A DNA stretch of 64,000 nt from Felis catus (Eukaryota). Under the pieces are notes generated by a model. The model had not been told where the DNA came from and did not search any database. It was given only the letters and a program-made list of their open reading frames with translations. Positions 10,901-50,902 of this stretch are shown here, piece after piece. Each line of letters starts with the position of its first letter. The stretch's first letter is position 1. The stretch lies in the NCBI RefSeq assembly GCF_018350175.1, contig NC_058382.1, positions 58,220,001 to 58,284,000 of the forward strand, in the 5' to 3' direction. A program made the translations under genes and the position numbers.

Positions 10901-12714
10901 GTGCCTGCTGTCCTACGTCACGGCAGAGCCACCGGGGTGGCCCGGAGGGTATCTATCCCGGTGTGGCCGCAGAGTGGGGCTGAGACCTTGTTTCTCTATC
11001 ACTCTGGATAAGGGTGACACCCCCCCCCACCTTGCTGCTTGTCATCCGCGTGACCTTGGGCCCGACCCCTCCCTTCTCAGGCTCGGTCTCCCCACCTGTG
11101 AAGGGGGCAGGGGCTCTCACTCCCCAGCACGGAGGACAGCCGCACCGGTGGGGAAGGTGAGGCGGCCAGCGCTAACAGTCGTGCAGTCCGGGGACGCGTT
11201 GGCGGGAGGCACGTTTGGCTCTCGGGCCCGAGAAGGCGTTTCAAAGGGTGCGCGTCCCAGAAGGGGGTCGGTTCAGAGTTCTAGCAGGGCAGGGCCTCTG
11301 CCGTCCGCGAGCTCCCCCGTTTTGACCTTTGGGGTGGAGTGGGGGAGACAGCGCCGTGCGCATGTCGGCTCCCACCCCCCCCCCCCCCCCAGTCAGGGCT
11401 GGGACGTGGGGAGGGTGCGAACCCACCCTCGATCGGCAGGCGAGGGAGGAGAAGCGACTTGCACCGGGCAGCTTTCTCTTTGGAAAGCCGTTCTGTTTCT
11501 TAAATGTCAGAGTGAGCAGATGGTGTGTCTGAGTTTTATTAATCATGGGCTCGCGGAGCTGGAAGGCCTGGGGGATCATTTAGTCCGAGCGTCCTACCGA
11601 GGAGGAGACTGAAGGCCAGAGAAGGCCAGAGCCACGCTGCACCTGTGACGGGGGCTGAGCTGTGCTGGGACCCAGATCCCCCCCCACCCCCCCATGCCCG
11701 CGTGCCTCCCACTCTGCGGAAGTAAACAGGTGCACTCTCCCCTCCGCCTCAGGAACAGCCGTCCAACTCCCGATGAAAAGCCGAAGCAGTGCTGATTCGG
11801 GGATGATCCGCCCCCAGGAACAACCGGAAATCCTGCCTTTGGGACACAGGGGTCAGGGCTGTGGTCGCCCACTGAGAACGTTCCGGTCTTGGGGCACCCT
11901 GCAGCTCCAGACGAGCTGGGGCTTCCCAGGTGCTGCCAGGAGACTTAGGGTCACGAGGCCCAGGGGACCCAGCCTGACTTGTTGGGGGCCCTGCTGGACC
12001 CACCCCTTGACGGCGATTCCTCTGGGCCACGTAACTCCTCCCTGCCCCAGCCCTTGACTGAGACTGTCCCCTCCCCTCCGTGGCAGCTGTTGAGACGGAC
12101 GGTAGCACAGGGCACCCGGAAGTTCACCTCATCACATGATGTTATGAAATTGAAACCACCGTTTTGGCCCAAGTGGGCAGAATAGCTCTTTTGTCCTGCC
12201 TTTCCCAAATACATCCTAGAGCTGCTCCAGTGAGTCACGAGATGCTCCAACAGCGTGGTTCCGTGAAGATAGCAGAGGTGGGGCTAGATCACACTAGAGT
12301 GTACATGACTGATAGCATATACTTTGTTCTTCGTAGCGGGTTTTGCTTAGGTTGGAGAGAAGGAGGTCTGTGGAGATAAAGGAGAATGACTGAGAGGCCC
12401 AAGGCACCAGGGTAGCCCACATAACCTGTTGGCGGCCTTCACCCCCCCTTTGGCCGTATGAGCACCTTCACATCATTGCGTTCCTTCCTTCCTGGCCCTG
12501 TTAACTGAGACACAAGCTTGTCCCCACTTTGGAGCCATTGATTCTCAGCAGCATCGGAGAATCTGGGACAGCTGGAAGGCCCCGTTCAGCCCCTCTGATT
12601 TTTTATGCGGTGAAATCGGGGCCGAGAGAGAGCGTTTTTTTTTCCGAGGCCGATGGCAGAACGGGGTCTGAAACTCTGGTCCCGCAGCATACTGGTGGGG
12701 TCCCTTAGGCTGCA

Positions 12715-21209: not shown

Positions 21210-22100
21210 GGTTTTGGGGGGGGGTGTTGGTGGCGAGAGGGGGAGGGGAGCCGGCTCCTCGGCCTGCTTTCTCCTGCCCGAGACTTGTTTGCAATCGCTG
21301 CCTCTTTTATTTACGAGAAGAAATCTCCCCCTCGGTACTTCTTGGCTGTTTGGGTATTAATTTTCTCCTCTCCCCTCTCTCGCTCGCCCCCTCCTCCTCT
21401 TCCCCCACCCCGCCCCTCCTCACCCAGTAGCTAAGGGGAAACGAAAACAAAGCCGATTTCTCCTTGGCAACAAGAGATACCCCCTCCCGCCGCCCCCCCT
21501 TCCTTTTTCCTTCTGGTTCTGAACGTGAAACCCTGTTGGAAACAGGTCCCTTGACCCTCGCCCTTGACATTCAAATGGCTGAATGGAGGAGAGATTGCTA
21601 CTCGCACGTCTTGGGGCTGCTGCTCTCTCTCTCTCTCTCCCTCTCCTCTCTCCTTTTTTTCTTTCAAATGAGTAATCCCTGAAGATCTTAACCCCCCAAT
21701 TTCATCACCCTCACCTCCCCCCTTTATTTTTCTCGCGCTCCTCTCGGCTCTCCCGCCTGCTTCCCTCCGCCGTGCGCCCCCCTCCTTTTTTTATTTGCAT
21801 CTCAAGTCCAAAAGGCAGAAAATACACACGCGGCGAAGACACCGGGCAGCCGTGGAGGCTCCGGCCCGTCCTCGGTCGTCAGTCACCCCATTGTGGATCT
21901 GCCCGGGCCGAGGTGGCCGAAACTGCCCGGGCGCTGGCCCCAGAGAGAGCCTTTTCATCATCTTAGGGAGGGGGAAAAAAGGGAAGAGAAAGACATTTTT
22001 CTCCGTCGCTCTCGGGATCTCTCTTCTGTCTTTATTTTATTGTTTTGGACATTTTTGAGCGCCTGGGCTTGGACGGCCCTTTTTGTCTCACTGCTGGGTT

Positions 22101-22110
22101 AAAAAAAAAA

Positions 22111-22156
<46 letters not shown>
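22101..22156. repeat. A14 immediately followed by T42 homopolymer
   Basis: Directly visible, ending 46 nt upstream of the ATG. Confidence 0.95.
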
Positions 22157-22159
<3 letters not shown>

Positions 22160-22202: not shown

Positions 22203-22239
22203 ATGTTTGGATTGAAGCCGCCACTGTATTACTTACCAG
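22203..22239 (+). CDS. GSE1: First coding exon (coding part) of a GSE1 alternative-promoter isoform; encodes MFGLKPPLYYLP + first base of G; partial CDS
   Basis: ATG at 22203 (A at -3), 37 nt, then a consensus donor CAG|GTAAGC at 22240, inside a CpG island. The peptide matches my recollection of the Gse1 N-terminus MFGLKPPLYYLPGMSHEPKS. Phase 1 fits the shared exon starting GC-ATG-AGC. Downstream exons are not in the window. Confidence 0.85.
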
Positions 22240-43215: not shown

Positions 43216-44886
43216 CGCCCGTTACTTGGAAGCCGTGCCTCACTGCAGGTCACAACCAGTCTGTGGCTCGGGATCTGCCGTACCCCCTCCTCGGGCAGCT
43301 TCAGCAGCGGGGGACCCCTGCGATGCCAGCGCCGAGCGCGGGCGAGCCAGAGCGGGCTCCGAGATGGGGGTGGGACAGAGAGGCCCCTCCCCTCGGGGGT
43401 GGGGCTTAGAGAACCACAGGGCCCTCCCCCGCCCGGGCAGGGCTTCCGCCTTGGGGTGGGATGGGGTTTCTGCCCGATCTAACCCACCCACTTCTTTTGA
43501 AATTCTGGCTGGGGCCAGCTGGGGGCGGGGGTCAGTCACAGACACAGCAGCGCTTTGTGTCCTTGGAATCCTTCTGTGGCCAACTTGTTGGGGAGGGCGC
43601 TTTGTATTGTAAATTTCCACCGAGTAATTATGTCTTAATGTATGATAATCCAGCTGGCCGGGTTGCTGGGCAGCCTGTATCAGCTGGGAGCCCGGGCCTG
43701 CTGTGGGCAGGGTGGCCGGGGTCAAAGTGACATGTCCTGGAGATCTGGGGACAGCGGGGTTTGCCTGGGTCCCGCTGCGTTGCTCCTGCGGGACCTGGGC
43801 TGGGGCTCCGGGGATTTGCCCGGACCTTGAGTGTAGGGGTGGGGGTGGGGGGCCGCTAAGGGTTTGTTCCTGGCGTGGTCCCTTACCTGTCCCTCATCCA
43901 GGCACGACAGTCCCCAAGGAGCCCCGGCCCAGCACCTCTCCCGCGGTTCCTGTGGCGTCTTAGGTCAGAACCAGCCCTGAAAGATGGTCCAGGCCCTGCT
44001 TGGAGTCGTGGATGGGGAGCTGACATTTTTGAACGTTCACTCTATGTTGGGCCCTGGGGTTCCAGGACTGAACTAAGCAGACAGAGATTCCTGAACTCCT
44101 GGACCAGGCGTGGAAGTTGGGGAGGTAGATAATGGACGAGATAAATAAGGTATGTGTCACGCAGTTACGAAGGAAAGATAACAGTGTGTGTAGGGGGAGG
44201 GGGGAAAGGGCGAGGGGATGGGTGCAGGTTTCAATTGGATGGGCCAGGGTGCGCCTTGGAGGGAGTAATAGCCCTGAAGGGAGTGAGGGAGCCGCCTTGG
44301 TAGATTTCTAGGGGAAGAGCAGCCCAGTGAGCTGGCTGGCATGTGCAAAGGCCCCGTGGCTGGAACTTCACTAAGTTGCCAGCTCTGAGTGTCTGTTCCG
44401 GAGATGTTCACAGAGCTTCCGCAAGCTGCGGGGAAAGGAGACAGAACAAGGGGGGACTTGGGGTCGGACGGGTATTCTGGCCCCGCTGTGGGAAAATCTG
44501 TGGCGATGCGGAGAAAGAGATGGGCTCAGAGAGAGAGGGTGAGTGGTGGGGGAGTACGTGCAGGAGTTCTGGAAGGGCCTTTCCTAGAGATGCCACGGGC
44601 CTTGGGTAGCAGGTGGTAAGTCTCGAAAGCCGAGGCTGAGCCCGGGACGGGGGGGGGGGGGGGGGCAGAGCTGGGGGGCAGGGCTGGTGTCTCTGCAAAC
44701 CTGTAGGGCTCGGGTATCCTCTGCCTCTGTGGAGACACAGCGGAGCCTGCCAGACGTCAGCCAAGGGGACACGTTGAGCTCGGTTTGACACGTGTCCCTG
44801 TCGATGCCCAGAGGGTCAGGTCTCTGGCCGGGCCACACAGCCCGGCAGTGGTGGCTGACACACAGCGAGGGGGGAGGTGGTGTCTC

Positions 44887-45225
44887 TGTTACGGATGGAA
44901 TGTTGGTGTCGTCTCCCCCAGATCCCTCAATTTAAGCCCTAACCCCCAGTATGGCTGTATTCTGAGATGGGACCTCTAAGGAAGTAATTCAGGTTAAATG
45001 AGGCCACGGGGTGGGGCCCTCTTCCGGTAGGATCAGTGTCCTGGTAAGAACAGACAGCAGAGAGAGCCCCCTTTCTGCTTCACGGGAGGACAGAGCGAGA
45101 AGGGGACTCCGTGCCATCCTGCCGGGGCCTTGATCTTGGACCCCGGCTTCCAGACCTTACCCGTCGTCGAAGCCACTTGGGCTGTGTGGTGTTTTGCTTT
45201 GTGGCCCAAGCAGCCCGTGACGGTC
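44887..45225 (+). mobile_element. MLT1A-like MaLR solo LTR
   Basis: tgttacggatggaatgtt...aagccctaacccccagtatggctgtattctgagatgggacctctaaggaagtaattcaggttaaatgagg...ccttgatcttggac. Confidence 0.85.
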
Positions 45226-45945: not shown

Positions 45946-46349
45946 TAGAGGGACAGGGACAGGGTGGTCAGTAACTTGGCCGACCCATGGGGACTGAGCC
46001 TTGCTTCACCCCCGTCTCTGATCCCAGGGACTACATGTGAGTCTCAGTGCACCACTGCAGCTGCCTGGAACTTTCCGCACTCTGTGCATCAGGCTGACCT
46101 CCGCCCTTCAGTCAGCGTCCCCTTCCTATGAGCTGGAGGCCTGGGGTCCCCTCTCCTGTCGAGGCCACTTGGGTCCTCGTGGTTGTGGGTTCCCAGCCCC
46201 AGCCGGCTGCATCTGAAGTCCACGGAGTTTAACAGACACAGAGTCCCGGGTCTCCTGCCACGCAGCAAATCGCATTCGGGAGACTCGGGCTGGAGCCTGG
46301 GGGTCTGCACCGCTCCAAGCCCCCCGCCCCGACTGGACGGTCACTCAGA

Positions 46350-47800
46350 TGTGGGAAGCAGGTACCGCCGGTGTGGGTTGCGGGGCGTGGGCCTCGTGGA
46401 GACTCCTGGCCCCCTGCGAGCGGGCTGCTGGTGCGGAATCAGGGGGGAGGGGGCCGGGGGCGCACGCACGTGCAGCCGCTTCTGCGCGAGGCCTGGTGTC
46501 ATCTCACATACGACTCTGAACCTGGCAGATGTAAAAGGATGCACTTAGCACCCCAAACAGGGCTCTGCAAACATTGCCTCCTCCCCGGAGGTGTCGGCAC
46601 CCCCCGGTTAATGTGTCCCGGCACAAAGGGAGCGTGCCAAGATTCCGCGTGACCTCGGCTCCTCCGCGCCTTCGGGGTAGCCGTCTGCCGCGGGAGTTGG
46701 CCGGGGTTCAGGGGGCTCGGGAAGCCCCCCGCGCGCTGGGCCGCTCGCGACGCCAAGCGCGGGAAAGGAGGTGGTGTTCTCTCTGGGAGCTGGCCGGAGG
46801 CCGGTCACTTGGGAGAGGACGAAGCTTCCTTGGCCCCGGATCGGTAAGAGGACCCCTTTGGCAAGGGGAGGGGGCCCTCCGGAACACAGTCCCCGCCGTG
46901 CACCCCGCCCAGGGGCGCCCCGAGCCCCGGCCCCCCTGTGTCGATAAACTGAGATTCTTCTCTCCACGGTTCGGGGCGCTGGGGGTGGGCACGGCCGTCC
47001 TGCACACCCCCCCTCGCCTCTTAATGCCTTCCTACCCCCAGCGCCCGTCTGTGGAGCCTGTGGTTGGTCGGCAGCCTGTCATTTAGCTGTTCCGAGCCAG
47101 CGATCGGGAGGCAGCACAAACTGTGGCATTTGCTGAGCGTAAAAATTCAATTAATTCCAGAAGGCAGATTAAATATAAGTGAGTTTTAATAATTTGCTGT
47201 AAAGTCGGAGGATTACTGGGGGCACGGGGAGGGAAACCACACATGCGTGTGCGATCAGGTTGCCGCGGCCGCGGGGGTGCGGGTGGAGCCCCTCACCCTC
47301 CCCGCGGGGCGCTCCCCCACCGCCCAGAGGCCGCCCGCCAGAGGGTGCTGTCGTGGGGTCTCCGGGCAGAACGTACAGGACCGGTGGGGCTGACCCAGCC
47401 TCCCGACTCCCCCCCCCCCACCCCGTGCACCCCACGCGGGGGAGCCGGCAGCTGAGGGCACAGGCGGCCGAGTCCTTCCTGAGCGACAGCACGTGCCCAG
47501 CGGGGCGGCCCCTTTGCCCCCGAATCTCTCTCTCTCTCTCTCTTTTATTTTCTTGCCTGCCCGTGGGGTCCCCCAGAGTTGACGGCTTCCAGTCCGGGCC
47601 CCGGAGCTCGTGTCGTCAGTCGTCCTAAGTTTGGAGGGCGTAAAGTGAGAGGGAGAAAACTCCCGTGGACCCCTCGGTCCCCCCGACGCACACAGGACCC
47701 ACACGCTCACACGCCTCCACTCCCGTGTGCGCCCGGTCGCACGCACACCCACCTGCCGTCGTGCGGGTGCACACGGTCCTGTCCCAGAAAGCCAGTAAGT
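46350..47800. promoter_or_regulatory. Intronic CpG-rich island with an AT-rich core (47080-47220)
   Basis: Dense CpG such as gcgcacgcacgtgc and ccgctcgcgacgcc, flanking aaaaattcaattaattccag...attaaatataagtgagt. Confidence 0.5.
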
Positions 47801-48283
47801 TGGTCGCCTTCCTGACTTGCCTCGGATTCGGGTGCCTGCTGTCCGTGCCTTTTGTCTTCTCCCACTGCCCAAACCCAGAAAAACAAAACAGGAGGCCTGA
47901 CCCCCTCCCCGTCCTCCTCCTCCCCGTGCTACCCAAAACGAGGCCTGACCCAGAAAAGGCGATTGGTAGAGGGGGCTGTCTGGAGCCTGCCTCTCCGGCC
48001 GCCCCTGCCCCAGGGGAGGCAGCGAGAGAAAGGAGGCAGGCAGCTTTTATGTCAAGACAGTGATGGTCCAGTGAGTACAAAATGCTATTTCAAAGCCAGC
48101 GTTCATCACTACCATTTCCCACTGTGATCTCCATAGATTTCTTTGTCTCCTTCAATTGGCCCTAATTATGGAACTGGAGGCTGCCTGATCAGTTTCATTC
48201 TTGTCATGAAATCCTGAGGGCACGCACGGGGACGGGGACACAGGCTCGCCAGCTGCACAGCCCGGAGACTGGCCTTGGGTCTT

Positions 48284-48350
48284 TGTGTGCGTGCGTGCGT
48301 GCGTGTGTGTGTGCCTGTGTGTGTGTGTGTGTGTGTGTGTGAGCGCGTGC
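48284..48350. repeat. Compound (GTGC)n/(GT)n microsatellite
   Basis: tgtgtgcgtgcgtgcgtgcgtgtgtgtgtgcctgtgtgtg... Confidence 0.9.
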
Positions 48351-50124
48351 GGGGGGGGGGGGGGCGTGTGCGCGTGCATGTGCTTAGAGACCTGCTCTCT
48401 CCCCCTCTGCTTGCTCCCCGAGAGGCCTGGCTGGTTCGGTGCCCCTCTTTTTTGGGCAGGAGTGAGTTCCCAGCGGACCTCCCAGCTGAGAACTGGCTAG
48501 CTGGGATGTGCATATGGTAAGCAGGCTGGGATGCTGGCTGCCACCGACTTGAACACCTGCAAAGACGAAAGCCACAGCCAAGCGTGGCTTTACCCTGCCT
48601 TCCCTCCACGCTCCCTCTAATGCCCTAATTATGCCGTGTTTGTTTCAGTAATTCACGCTCTCCGGGTACTGATCCATCAATAATGAATGTATTACCTGTC
48701 TCCGGGTAAGGTTGGGGAGATCCAGGATGCTGCTTTGAAAGCGTCTGCGAAGCAGAAGGGTCGGGGAGGCAGAGAGGCCCCCCCCCCCCCCGCCCGCAGC
48801 CTTCCTCTCTCCCAACCCTCCTTCCTCAGATGGCAGCATATTTGGCAAAAGGCATCTGAGCCTGGTACTTGGTGCGGCTTTTCCGTTCCCCCTCCGCTTT
48901 ATGCCTTTTTAATATTTAAAGCCATCATTGGGCTGAGCGATAAAATTCTTTCAAATCAAATTTTATCCTCCAATCTTGTGCTCTGCTTCCCCCTCTGGCC
49001 GGAAAAGTTGGTGGGGGCAGTGCTGGCTGAGCAGGGGTGCGGGGGGGGGGCGGTTCTGTCAGAGGGGAGCAGGTGCCAACGTGGAGGCTGCCGAGGCCAC
49101 CCCCACCCCCGCTGCCCATCCAGCATCCAGCCCAGGCCCCTGTGGGGTAAGGGGTGGGGTCTGCGTGGTCTGGACTGTGACCAGTGACAGGCCCACCCAG
49201 GACGGACCAGGGGAAGGTCGACGGACCCGAGGACGTATTCCAGGGCCAGATCCTGTCGTGTGGGGCTGGATCCCCCCTCCTCCCTTTTGCTGATTGCCAG
49301 GGCATCTTTGAAAAGATGGAAAAACAAAACCAAAAGGCGCGATGACCTGTGTGCCGTTTGCAGGGAGAGGGGAGAGAGGGGCAGCCACAGACCTCTGCCT
49401 GCTGTTGTCTCAGGAGCTGGCCAGGAGGACGGGACCATAAAATGAGCTTGGCCTCCAGGCACCAGCCTCCCCGGCTCTGCCTGCCAAGCCTGTGTTGTGC
49501 TGGCAGCCTGGAGCCCAGAGGTCGCTACCTATCGGTCCCCAAGGCTTGCAGGGACCAAAGGCCTGTCTGGGATGCTCCCCGCTCTGCCCTGCTTCTCTGG
49601 CTCCCGAAAAGACGCGCTCTGCCTGGGCTGTCTTTCTCCTCTTGCTGTTTTTGGTGGCCCTCCCGCATGGCAGACGAGGTGATGTCTTCAGGGTACCCAG
49701 GGACGCAGCCCGGTGCTGGGGGCCTGTGCCGGGAGACCCCATCGGGGACGACGCCAAGGGCAGCGGGGTTCCCCCGTGTTGCCAGCGCTTTCTCTAATGC
49801 CTTGTTTTGGGATGTCGTTGTCTGGAGGTGTCTTTCTGCCCGGCTGTACCTCCGTGTGGAGTGGGATACAGCCCAAGTCTGGAGCCTTCCGCTGTAACTG
49901 CAGCCTGGCATCAGCAGGTTGGGACCCCATCCTGGTTCTGATCCTTGCTTCCCGAATAGTCTTGGGCAGGCCACCCCTTCTCTGGGCCACAGGCGCTCCT
50001 TTGTAAGGCTGGTGGTGAGGACAGCGGCAACCGTCCCTCCTAAGTGATTCCTTGCCGGGCACCGAGCCGGGTCCCCGGTCTATACCTCTTCTGGCTCGAG
50101 GATGCCACGCGGTGCCTCCGTGAG

Positions 50125-50335
50125 GAGCAGGGACTCCGAGCCGGCCTGCCTGTGTTCACTTCCGGGCTCTGCCACTTACCAGCTGCGTGACCTCGACCAA
50201 ATCGTGCTACCTCTCTGTGCCTCAGTTCCCTCGCTTGTAAAATGGGGGTGAGAGAAGTGTCTCCCTCGTGGTGAGAGGTGGGGCTTTGCAGGGAGTAAGT
50301 GGGAAGTGCCCGGAACAGCAGGTAGCCATTATTTC
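50125..50335 (+). mobile_element. MIR
   Basis: ctctgccacttaccagctgcgtgacctc...acctctctgtgcctcagttccctcgcttgtaaaatgggg. Confidence 0.8.
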
Positions 50336-50469
50336 GTAACCTTAAACCTGCCCTCTGTCCGCTACCCAAGAGGGAAGATGCGATCCTCGTCCGAGGCTTA
50401 CCAAGAAAGTGACTTGTTTCACATCCGGTGTCCGATAAGGCTGATCAGCTCCAGGAGAGTCCCGGGGCG

Positions 50470-50902
50470 GCTGTGGCTCGGGACCCCAAGCTCTGGCTGA
50501 AACGGCACAAGCGTCCTCTCTCTCCGCTCTGGAGGCCTGGGGTCCAGAATCACGGAGGGACCAGCAGCGCTGGTCCCTCTGAGGCCGTGAGGATCTCTGT
50601 TCCAGGCGCCCCTCAGCCTGTGGACGGCCGCCCTTTTCCCCGTCTCCTCGCGTCGTCCTCCCCGTGTGTGTCTGTCTGTGTCCAAATTTTAAAACGACAC
50701 CAGTCACACTGGATTAGGGGGCCAGCCTGCTCCGGAATGACCTCATCTTTTTTTTTTTTTCCCCAGAATGACCTCATCTTAACTAATTAAATTACATCTA
50801 CAATGACCTTATTTCCAAATGAGGTCACATTCGGAGGTCCTGGGATTAGGGTTTCAGCCTATGAATTTGGGGGGGGGGAGGCACAGTTCAGCCCAGACCT
50901 CA
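50470..50902 (-). mobile_element. MLT1B-like MaLR solo LTR
   Basis: gacaccagtcacactggattaggg...atgacctcatcttaactaatt...attacatctacaatgaccttatttccaaatgaggtcacattcggaggtcctgggattagg...cacagttcagccc. Confidence 0.85.

What the first reader, a model, noticed from the sequence alone, without database searches (positions are those of the whole stretch)
48600..48712. Candidate 57-nt 'stop-stop-restart' cassette exon that rebuilds the GSE1 N-terminal YYL-PG motif
Seen in the sequence: a ~64-nt AG-free zone, branch-like CCCTAAT (48623-48629), acceptor tgtttgtttcag|48649 and donor CGG|GTAAGG at 48706. The exon is 57 nt, so phase 1 in and phase 1 out, the same phase as the 22203-22239 exon. Spliced to that exon it reads MFGLKPPLYYLP-V-IHALRVLIHQ, then TAA TGA, then immediately ATG TAT TAC CTG TCT CCG G (MYYLSPG). 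This resembles the end of the first exon (CTG TAT TAC TTA CCA G|gtaag = LYYLPG), and the segment sits in an AT-rich, repeat-free island. Inference: inclusion would turn the normal start into a 23-aa uORF. The result could be NMD (poison exon) or reinitiation giving MYYLSPG-MSHEPK.... Alternatively it is a duplicated or alternative first coding exon. I do not know of this being described.
Basis: partly seen in the sequence, partly recalled or inferred. Interest (0 to 1): 0.75.

Follow-up and report, generated by a model that had tools for sequence, protein, structure and literature searches.

The report
Conserved exon-like block in GSE1 intron
A 57-base stretch in the first intron of the chromatin-regulator gene GSE1 looks like a small exon and is conserved in other mammals, but nothing here shows that it is ever spliced into RNA, so it may equally be part of a conserved regulatory DNA block.

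Summary
The window is the 5' part of GSE1 in a 2.43-Gb mammalian genome. The MFGLKPPLYYLP(G) exon lies at 22203-22239. The MKG first exon and exon 2 lie beyond the window, at window-equivalent 74083 and 90833.

Splice-like anatomy alone is at chance level. Four + strand and two - strand AG..GT pairs in 92 kb do as well on all three measures.

Two things exceed chance:
- The YYL(x)PG|GTRAG resemblance has a chance of about 4e-4 before look-elsewhere correction.
- Six of 11 orthologous genomic ORFs from other species start MYYLS[P/L]GKV.

Against an exon:
- Conservation runs at least 50 nt past the donor and into an invariant AT-rich block about 200 nt downstream.
- Pro is Leu in 3 of 6 groups.
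- None of 255 GSE1-related proteins carries an MYYL start.
- The ATG has a weak context, with an out-of-frame ATG 4 nt upstream.

Best reading (0.5): a conserved non-coding module with a fortuitous pseudo-exon. A real conserved 5' poison or uORF cassette remains possible (about 0.25).

The parts
22203..22239 (+). GSE1 first coding exon 1a, MFGLKPPLYYLP(G), with donor G|GTAAGC
   Evidence: The same N-terminus is joined to MSHEPK in proteins from shark to mammals.
46250..47900 (.). Intronic CpG island about 750 nt upstream of the candidate
   Evidence: GC 0.52-0.77 and CpG o/e 0.66-0.87 in 250-nt windows. Promoter activity was not tested.
48583..48646 (+). 64-nt AG-free zone holding branch-like CTCTAAT and CCCTAAT (48623-48629) and the T-rich tract TGTTTGTTT
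   Evidence: An AG-free zone of 64 nt or more precedes 88 of 6389 AGs (1.4%) on the + strand.
48647..48648 (+). Candidate acceptor AG
   Evidence: Rough PWM score 6.9 bits against 13.1 for the exon 2 acceptor.
48649..48705 (+). 57-nt exon-like segment, phase 1 in and phase 1 out
   Evidence: The antisense-frame peptide PNLTRRQVIHSLLMDQYPESVNY is identical in another species.
48681..48686 (+). In-frame TAA TGA that would end a 23-codon ORF begun at the exon 1a ATG
48683..48685 (+). Out-of-frame ATG (context AATAATGA, A at -3). If spliced to exon 2 it reads MNVLPVSGHEP*, ending after the exon 2 ATG
48687..48705 (+). ATG TAT TAC CTG TCT CCG G = MYYLSP(G); start context T at -3 and T at +4
   Evidence: Orthologous ORFs start MYYLS[P/L]G in 6 of 11 hits.
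48706..48711 (+). Candidate donor GTAAGG
   Evidence: Rough PWM score 8.5 bits against 11.0-11.5 for the three real GSE1 donors. GK (GGT AAG) is kept in all 6 MYYLS representatives. One cluster member has GQ.
48706..48755 (+). Conserved flank beyond the donor (KV.EIQDAALK.SAKQ in the read-through frame)
   Evidence: Three further hits keep this stretch in another frame (MGDPGCCFEN).
48756..48821 (.). Variable G/C-rich spacer with indels and frame shifts between species
48822..48983 (.). Strongly conserved block. The core at 48900-48983 is AT-rich and invariant at the amino-acid level in all 12 aligned sequences (YAFLIFKAIIGLS.KILSNQIL)

Best explanation
The 57-nt segment is the 5' half of a conserved non-coding block. 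The block runs from about 48650 to 48755, then after a variable spacer from 48822 to 48983. It lies in the large 5' intron of GSE1, just downstream of an intronic CpG island.

I read it as cis-regulatory DNA, enhancer-like or promoter-proximal. On this reading its AT-rich motifs happen to look like a polypyrimidine tract, a branch site and a GTAAG donor. The segment is then a pseudo-exon that the spliceosome ignores, or uses only at trace level, and the MYYLSPG / LYYLPG likeness is a coincidence held in place by constraint on the DNA rather than on a peptide.

Shown here: the sequence features, the conservation and its extent, and the absence of an MYYL start among the proteins examined. Inferred: the regulatory function and the lack of splicing.
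For: (1) Conservation is not exon-shaped. In the 7 distinct read-through sequences it continues for 17 residues past the donor at a similar level (1 of 7 exon columns vary, 9 of 17 flank columns vary). It resumes in a block that is invariant in all 12 aligned sequences (22 invariant columns).

(2) The frame between the two blocks is not kept. Three of 11 hits enter the downstream block from another frame and 2 of 11 start downstream. So neither a protein nor the ORF itself is what is conserved.

(3) Splice-like anatomy of this quality is expected by chance. Four + strand and two - strand cases in 92 kb do as well on acceptor score, donor score and AG-free zone. One of them, 47042-47178, lies in a second AT-rich island 1.5 kb upstream. 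This suggests such islands mimic splice signals because of their composition.

(4) The candidate's sites are weaker than the real GSE1 sites: acceptor 6.9 against 13.1 bits, donor 8.5 against 11.0-11.5 bits (the PWM is recalled).

(5) None of 255 GSE1-related proteins (146, 109 further cluster members) has MYYL or any YYL..[PL]G other than the canonical exon 1a motif. The set does contain 15 MKG starts, 15 MFGLKPPLYYLPG starts, 13 direct MSHEPK starts and several species-specific 5' exons.

(6) Pro of the 'PG' is Leu in 3 of 6 species groups, whereas the true MFGLKPPLYYLPG is almost invariant from amphibians to mammals.

(7) From recall and not tested: the segment holds strings that resemble forkhead (TGTTTGTTT), homeodomain (TAATTA) and PBX-like (TGATCCATCAATAA) sites.
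Against: - The YYL(x)PG|GTRAG match, in the same phase and on the same strand 26 kb from exon 1a, has a chance of about 4e-4 before look-elsewhere correction. An ATG directly precedes it. I count chance as the cause only with some discomfort.
- In one species the exon plus donor (23 antisense codons, 48648-48716) shows 0 amino-acid changes, while the next 17 sense codons show 6. That is a local conservation peak on the exon.
- Flanking intronic conservation is also typical of conserved poison exons (recalled knowledge), so point 1 above does not exclude an exon.
- The 64-nt AG-free zone with a branch-like motif 20 nt from the AG is found at only 1.4% of AGs.
- The protein database collapses isoforms into 90% clusters. 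At most 15 members per cluster were listed, and only 120 of 260 'longer' hits were shown, so absence of MYYL forms is weak evidence.
- No RNA data were seen at all.
- No enhancer assay or chromatin data were available.
Confidence: 0.5

Rival explanations
1. It is a real, conserved 5' cassette exon of the poison or uORF type. It would be included in transcripts from promoters upstream of it, meaning the MFGLK exon 1a and the far-upstream long-N-terminus isoforms. Inclusion stops the upstream ORF at TAA TGA. The mRNA is then degraded by NMD, or is translated from a downstream ATG. The exon 2 ATG (MSHEPK) is a more likely restart than 48687. Either way, output of the MFGLK or long proteoforms would fall, while transcripts from the MKG promoter at window-equivalent 74083 would be untouched.
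For: - In-frame stops and phase-1/phase-1 geometry.
- A 64-nt AG-free zone, a branch-like motif and a GGTAAG donor.
- ATG, YYLS and GGTAAG are conserved in 6 other species groups, and the whole exon is unchanged in one species.
- The motif likeness to exon 1a is unlikely by chance.
- GSE1 has many alternative 5' exons, all ending in phase 1.
- The candidate lies between the upstream exons and exon 2.
Against: - No transcript evidence was obtained.
- None of 255 proteins has the MYYL start that annotation pipelines would be expected to call for transcripts joining this exon to exon 2. That expectation rests on recalled knowledge of how such pipelines choose starts.
- Splice sites are weaker than those of the real exons.
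- Conservation is not limited to the exon.
- One cluster member has GGT CAG in place of GGT AAG at the donor (P0281).
Confidence: 0.25
2. It is an alternative first coding exon. Transcription would start in or after the CpG island (46250-47900), and the exon would end at the 48705 donor. Translation from ATG 48687 would give MYYLSPG-MSHEPK..., a shortened copy of the ancient N-terminus that arose by duplication of the 3' end of exon 1a.
For: - A CpG island lies 750 nt upstream.
- An ATG directly precedes YYLSPG, in phase with exon 2.
- The differences from exon 1a are synonymous (TTA/CTG Leu, CCA/CCG Pro) plus one inserted codon.
- The ATG is conserved in 6 species groups.
Against: - The start context is weak (T at -3, T at +4).
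- An out-of-frame ATG with A at -3 lies 4 nt upstream, and five more ATGs lie within the 181 nt upstream.
- No MYYL N-terminus appears among 255 proteins.
- Pro is replaced by Leu in 3 of 6 groups.
- There is no DNA similarity to exon 1a beyond the 8-mer and the donor.
- The conserved acceptor-side half of the segment would have no role in this model.
Confidence: 0.07
3. It is an exon, or part of one, belonging to another transcript. Candidates are an intronic or antisense long non-coding RNA driven by the nearby CpG island. The - strand also carries a donor-like CAG|GTAATA inside the segment.
For: - Conservation on both sides of the proposed donor.
- A CpG island close by.
- Fourteen runs guessed, but not recorded, as RNA hold 90-100% of the unspliced 601-nt stretch.
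Against: - The tool itself labels those runs as possibly DNA, and the only run on record as RNA is a gut metatranscriptome.
- No Rfam family matches near its threshold (5 matches, best 25.8 bits against a gathering score of 80).
- Nothing else points to a transcript.
Confidence: 0.08
4. The 100-166-codon ORF that starts at ATG 48687 and reads through the 'donor' is a small conserved protein-coding gene.
For: ORFs of 102-131 aa starting MYYLS occur in 6 other species groups and include an invariant 28-residue stretch.
Against: - The frame is shifted in 3 of 11 hits and truncated in 2 of 11.
- The middle part is hypervariable, with indels.
- The C-termini are unrelated.
- The region is about 60% GC, where long ORFs arise by chance.
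- Antisense-frame identity over the start region points to nucleotide-level rather than peptide-level constraint.
Confidence: 0.02

Closest known systems
Conserved non-coding elements (CNEs, enhancer-like ultraconserved intronic blocks)
   Same: - AT-rich islands in a GC-rich intron.
- Invariant over tens of bases in all 12 aligned sequences.
- Conservation is independent of reading frame and of the proposed exon boundary.
- A second similar island lies 1.5 kb upstream.
   Different: No chromatin, reporter or transcription-factor binding evidence was available here. The element also carries a complete, phase-compatible exon anatomy and a peptide-level echo of the gene's own first exon.
NMD-coupled 'poison' cassette exons, such as the ultraconserved ones in SR-protein genes (recalled knowledge)
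   Same: - A short cassette with in-frame stops.
- High conservation that extends into the flanking intron.
- The host gene is a chromatin regulator.
   Different: Inclusion has not been shown. The stop falls only 23 codons after the exon 1a ATG, so for that isoform it would behave more like a uORF with possible reinitiation than a classic poison exon. For the long upstream isoforms it would be a classic premature stop.
Intronic pseudo-exons (recalled knowledge: AG..GT pairs with good scores far outnumber real exons in long introns)
   Same: Four + strand and two - strand pairs in 92 kb match or beat it on acceptor score, donor score and AG-free zone.
   Different: Ordinary pseudo-exons are not conserved between species. 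This one is.
uORF termination-reinitiation and alternative N-terminal proteoforms (recalled knowledge)
   Same: A short upstream ORF of 23 codons followed by an in-frame restart codon.
   Different: By recalled knowledge, reinitiation efficiency rises with distance from the uORF stop. Here the ATG lies 3 nt after the first stop and competes with an overlapping out-of-frame ATG. No specialised stop-start element such as a viral TURBS was looked for or seen.

Membership tests
NMD-coupled poison cassette exon | The segment is spliced into mature RNA (junction reads on both sides) | not testable with these tools
The run search used a query too long to detect a 57-nt exon.
NMD-coupled poison cassette exon | Inclusion brings an in-frame premature stop upstream of later exon junctions | tested here: met
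   TAA TGA at 48681-48686 is in the exon 1a frame. The 219-nt exon 2 and further exons follow.
NMD-coupled poison cassette exon | The isoform is stabilised when NMD is inhibited | not testable with these tools
   No such data were reachable.
NMD-coupled poison cassette exon | Exon and splice sites are conserved between species | tested here: inconclusive
   ATG..G|GTAAG is kept in 6 of 11 orthologous ORFs. The whole exon is unchanged in the antisense frame of one species, whose ORF stops at the acceptor position. Only amino-acid proxies were available, and the tract upstream of the acceptor was not seen in any other species.
Alternative first coding exon | A homologous N-terminus is present in annotated or assembled proteins | tested here: not met
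   None of 255 GSE1-related proteins has MYYL or a second YYL..[PL]G. Sampling was limited by clustering and listing caps.
Alternative first coding exon | A favourable start codon with no competing upstream ATG | tested here: not met
   T at -3 and T at +4. An out-of-frame ATG lies at 48683 with A at -3, and 5 more ATGs lie within 48506-48631.
Alternative first coding exon | Its own promoter or transcription start site | tested here: inconclusive
   A CpG island lies at 46250-47900. No CAGE or read data were available.
Conserved non-coding element | Cross-species conservation not explained by a reading frame or exon boundary | tested here: met
   Conservation continues past the donor. Frames shift between the blocks in 3 of 11 hits. 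There are 22 invariant columns in the downstream block.
Conserved non-coding element | Regulatory activity (open chromatin, reporter expression) | not testable with these tools
   No such data were reachable.
Recursive splice site / RS-exon | A juxtaposed AG|GTRAGT that regenerates a 5' splice site after the first splicing step | tested here: not met
   The sequence after the acceptor is TAATTC, not GT.

The most novel reading that the evidence does not exclude
This would be a deeply conserved 57-nt 5' cassette exon of GSE1 acting as an N-terminus switch. It would end the ancient MFGLKPPLYYLPG open reading frame, or the long upstream isoforms, with two stops. It would then immediately offer M-YYLSPG in frame with exon 2. 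Inclusion would trade full-length N-termini for NMD or for a truncated proteoform that still carries the YYL-PG core. The exon would descend from a duplication of the 3' end of exon 1a.
Probability: 0.2. Interest if true: 0.6.

Novelty: new member of a known kind. Interest (0 to 1): 0.33.

Why it matters
GSE1 is a subunit of the HDAC1/CoREST co-repressor complex (PMC10681733; abstract seen in the listing, passages searched).

Its 13-residue N-terminus MFGLKPPLYYLPG is almost unchanged from sharks to mammals, yet I found no statement of its function in the passages searched in that paper.

If the segment is a real exon, it would give a conserved way to switch that N-terminus off. It would also be a natural handle for asking what the YYLPG motif does.

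If it is regulatory DNA, it marks a cluster of conserved elements beside an intronic CpG island that may control GSE1 or a neighbouring gene.

It is also a cautionary case. A conserved, phase-compatible, motif-echoing 'exon' can still lack any evidence of splicing.

Tried and rejected
1. RNA reads. No junction, depth or start-site data were obtained.

2. Run search. Twenty runs hold the 601-nt stretch. Fourteen are only guessed to be RNA, and the one on record as RNA is a gut metatranscriptome. The query was too long to reveal a 57-nt exon. This is no evidence for or against expression.

3. Orthologous DNA. A peptide-pattern scan of metagenome contigs matched 584 stretches, none confirmed. A degenerate DNA pattern gave 3 loci (L008-L010) that match only the pattern itself and are chance hits. 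No nucleotide alignment with other species was possible, so conservation rests on translated ORFs.

4. Antisense ORF search. It returned a single representative.

5. DNA-level duplication of exon 1a. The local alignment is not significant.

6. Rfam. Five weak matches, all far below gathering scores.

7. Other species' alternative 5' peptides. Eleven were searched in the 92-kb region and only the MKG exon was found. The long N-terminal isoform exons are not in the region.

8. Rejected on the sequence: a recursive splice site, and a conserved small ORF (see the rival explanations).

9. Earlier findings of this scan. Three look-ups found nothing on this genome or on GSE1.

10. Literature.
- 'GSE1' with 'alternative first exon' returned only matches to GEO accession numbers.
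- 'GSE1' with 'poison exon' found 0 papers.
- 'GSE1' with 'poison exons' found 1 paper, which names Gse1 only in an ATAC-seq table.
- 'GSE1' with 'isoforms' and 'N-terminus' found 15 papers. The one on GSE1 itself has no passage on GSE1 isoforms or exons.
- Supplements were not opened.
Full report
**Setting**

The window is G000:C39:58220001-58284000 (+) of a 2.43-Gb genome in 71 contigs. It holds the 5' part of GSE1.
- The first coding exon 1a, ATG TTT GGA TTG AAG CCG CCA CTG TAT TAC TTA CCA G|gtaagc, lies at 22203-22239.
- Exon 2 is outside the window. A degenerate pattern for G-MSHEPK hit once, at C39:58310832. Reading L002 shows ttcctgtttcag|GC ATG AGC CAT GAG..., a 219-nt exon that is phase 1 in and phase 1 out (L002:1502-1720, window-equivalent 90833-91051).
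- The DUF3736 domain of GSE1 lies further downstream.
- I fetched the 28 kb between the window end and exon 2. In it the mammalian MKG first exon (ATG AAA G|GTGAGC) sits at window-equivalent 74083.
- The candidate therefore lies between exon 1a and the MKG promoter. If used, it could affect only transcripts that start upstream of it.

**Observation**

- a 64-nt AG-free zone (48583-48646);
- CCCTAAT at 48623-48629;
- acceptor tttcag|T at 48649;
- donor CGG|GTAAGG after 48705;
- a length of 57 nt.

The in-script splice of exon 1a, candidate and exon 2 translates to MFGLKPPLYYLPVIHALRVLIHQ**MYYLSPGMSHEPK. The patch has lower GC than its flanks. It is single copy and free of detected interspersed repeats from about 45950 to 50450.

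**Is it more than chance?**

The splice anatomy is not. I used a rough PWM whose frequencies I recalled, so it serves only for ranking.
- The candidate scores 6.9 bits (acceptor) and 8.5 bits (donor). Exon 2 scores 13.1 at its acceptor, and the three real donors score 11.0-11.5.
- Thirty-four + strand and 18 - strand AG..GT pairs of 30-250 nt in the 92 kb score at least as well.
- An AG-free zone of 64 nt or more precedes only 1.4% of AGs (88 of 6389).
- Requiring all three properties still leaves 4 cases on + and 2 on -. Those on + are the candidate, the true exon 2, 11081-11156 and 47042-47178.

The peptide echo is different.
- In the whole genome, YY[L/F]xPG|GTRAG occurs 15 times and YY[L/F]PG|GTRAG 16 times on both strands. 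The backwards-read controls give 29 and 20, so the motif is not enriched genome-wide.
- Two of the 31 hits are exon 1a and the candidate.
- The chance that one of the other 30 lands on the + strand of the 68.6 kb between exon 1a and exon 2 is about 4e-4. Allowing for other likenesses a reader might have noticed, I put it at 1e-3 to 1e-2.
- At the DNA level only TGTATTAC and GGTAAG are shared, and a generic local alignment is not significant. A recent duplication is therefore excluded.

**Conservation**

No tool gave orthologous eukaryotic DNA, so I used translated genomic ORFs from the large protein collection as proxies.

The 166-codon read-through ORF that starts at ATG 48687 has 11 relatives in other, unnamed species (49-75% identity).
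- Six of the 11 begin MYYLS[P/L]GKV.EIQDAALK. Pro is Leu in 3 of these 6.
- Three others carry the next stretch in a shifted frame (MGDPGCCFEN, matching the cat GWGDPGCCFES at 48710 onward).
- Two start further downstream.
- After a hypervariable G/C-rich spacer (48756-48821), all 12 sequences share a block with 22 invariant columns. Its core is YAFLIFKAIIGLS.KILSNQIL at 48900-48983.

The antisense ORF covering the segment found one representative, a 47-aa ORF. Its longest contig (17,211 nt) is nearly the same length as that of P0147 (17,215 nt), so it probably comes from the same species. Its last 23 residues equal the cat's (PNLTRRQVIHSLLMDQYPESVNY, covering 48648-48716), and it ends at the acceptor position.

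In that species the next 17 sense-frame residues differ at 6 positions. There the exon plus donor is thus a local conservation peak. In four of the other five species groups the flank is about as conserved as the exon.

**Proteins**

I examined 146 proteins found with exon 2 and 109 further members of ten mammalian clusters.
- Among the cluster members, the N-termini joined to MSHEPK are MFGLKPPLYYLPG (15), MKG (15), no extension (13), long extensions ending ...GTG or similar, and several species-specific short exons.
- None of the 255 has MYYL or a second YYL..[PL]G.
- This counts against a commonly used exon. By my recollection, pipelines would call the in-frame ATG.
- The sampling is incomplete: clusters are at 90% identity, at most 15 members were listed per cluster, and only 120 of 260 'longer' hits were shown.

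**Translation logic**

ATG 48687 has T at -3 and T at +4. An ATG at 48683 has A at -3, is out of frame, and if spliced to exon 2 would read MNVLPVSGHEP*, ending just after the exon 2 ATG.

After a 23-codon uORF, a restart 3 nt beyond the stop is not what recalled knowledge of reinitiation predicts. The exon 2 ATG or a later one is the more likely restart site.

In a first-exon model, five further upstream ATGs lie within 181 nt.

**RNA evidence**

There is none. The run search listed 20 holders of the whole 601-nt stretch, of which only one is on record as RNA, a gut metatranscriptome. The query was too long to reveal a 57-nt exon.

**Weighing**

The segment is real, conserved sequence, so it is not a throw-away pseudo-exon. 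Two readings survive.

The CNE reading is favoured (about 0.5) for these reasons:
- conservation ignores the donor boundary in most species;
- an invariant AT-rich block lies 200 nt away;
- a second AT-rich island 1.5 kb upstream also mimics an exon;
- the splice sites are mediocre;
- no MYYL isoform was seen;
- Pro is replaced by Leu in 3 of 6 species groups.

The exon reading (about 0.25 as a poison or uORF cassette, about 0.07 as a first coding exon) is kept alive by these points:
- the improbable in-phase YYL-PG|GTAAG echo directly after an ATG;
- the AG-free zone and branch-like motif;
- the conservation peak in one species;
- the many alternative phase-1 5' exons of this gene.

The two readings are not exclusive.

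**Literature**

Four searches of the held library returned no paper describing such an exon in GSE1. Two papers were probed by passage search only. Statements about poison exons, pseudo-exon abundance, Kozak context, reinitiation distance and NMD rules are recalled knowledge, not tool results.

Noticed in passing
window 22094-22157: A long homopolymer pair (about 14 A followed by about 50 T) lies some 45 nt upstream of the exon 1a start codon, inside the presumed 5' UTR or promoter.
   Followed up: no
window 47042-47178 (AT-rich island about 47060-47230): A second AT-rich island lies inside the CpG island. It has its own exon-like anatomy: an 86-nt AG-free zone, acceptor cccccag|C and donor TAA|GTGAGT. 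It also carries homeobox-like strings (CAATTAATTCC, TTTTAATAATTTGC). Its conservation was not tested.
   Followed up: partly
window 48900-48983: An AT-rich block is invariant at the amino-acid-proxy level in all 12 aligned sequences from different species. It is probably an ultraconserved-type non-coding element.
   Followed up: partly
L006 about position 83 (window-equivalent 74083-74089): The mammalian MKG first coding exon of GSE1 (ATG AAA G|GTGAGC) lies 10 kb beyond the window end and 16.7 kb upstream of exon 2.
   Followed up: yes
window 50459-50897 and 44879-45104: Two SINE-like interspersed repeats. Part of the first (50459-50748) has a 95%-identical copy about 814 kb away on the same contig (C39:57453977-57454266, - strand).
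   Followed up: no
window 48284-48351: A (TG)n / (TGTGTGCG)n microsatellite lies 300 nt upstream of the candidate. Nearby are another acceptor-like site at 48460 and a donor-like ATATG|GTAAGC after 48516.
   Followed up: no
proteins P0159, P0189, P0205 and others: In several mammals exon 2 itself (219 nt, phase 1/phase 1) is skipped in annotated isoforms (MKG-SSLSSESS..., MFGLKPPLYYLPG-SSLSS...). The 5' end of GSE1 is therefore built from interchangeable phase-1 modules.
   Followed up: partly
protein P0281: One member of the most widely sampled orthologous ORF cluster reads MYYLSLGQV instead of ...GKV. This is a change at the third base of the would-be donor (GGT CAG). It comes from a single 532-nt contig and could be a variant or an error.
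   Followed up: no
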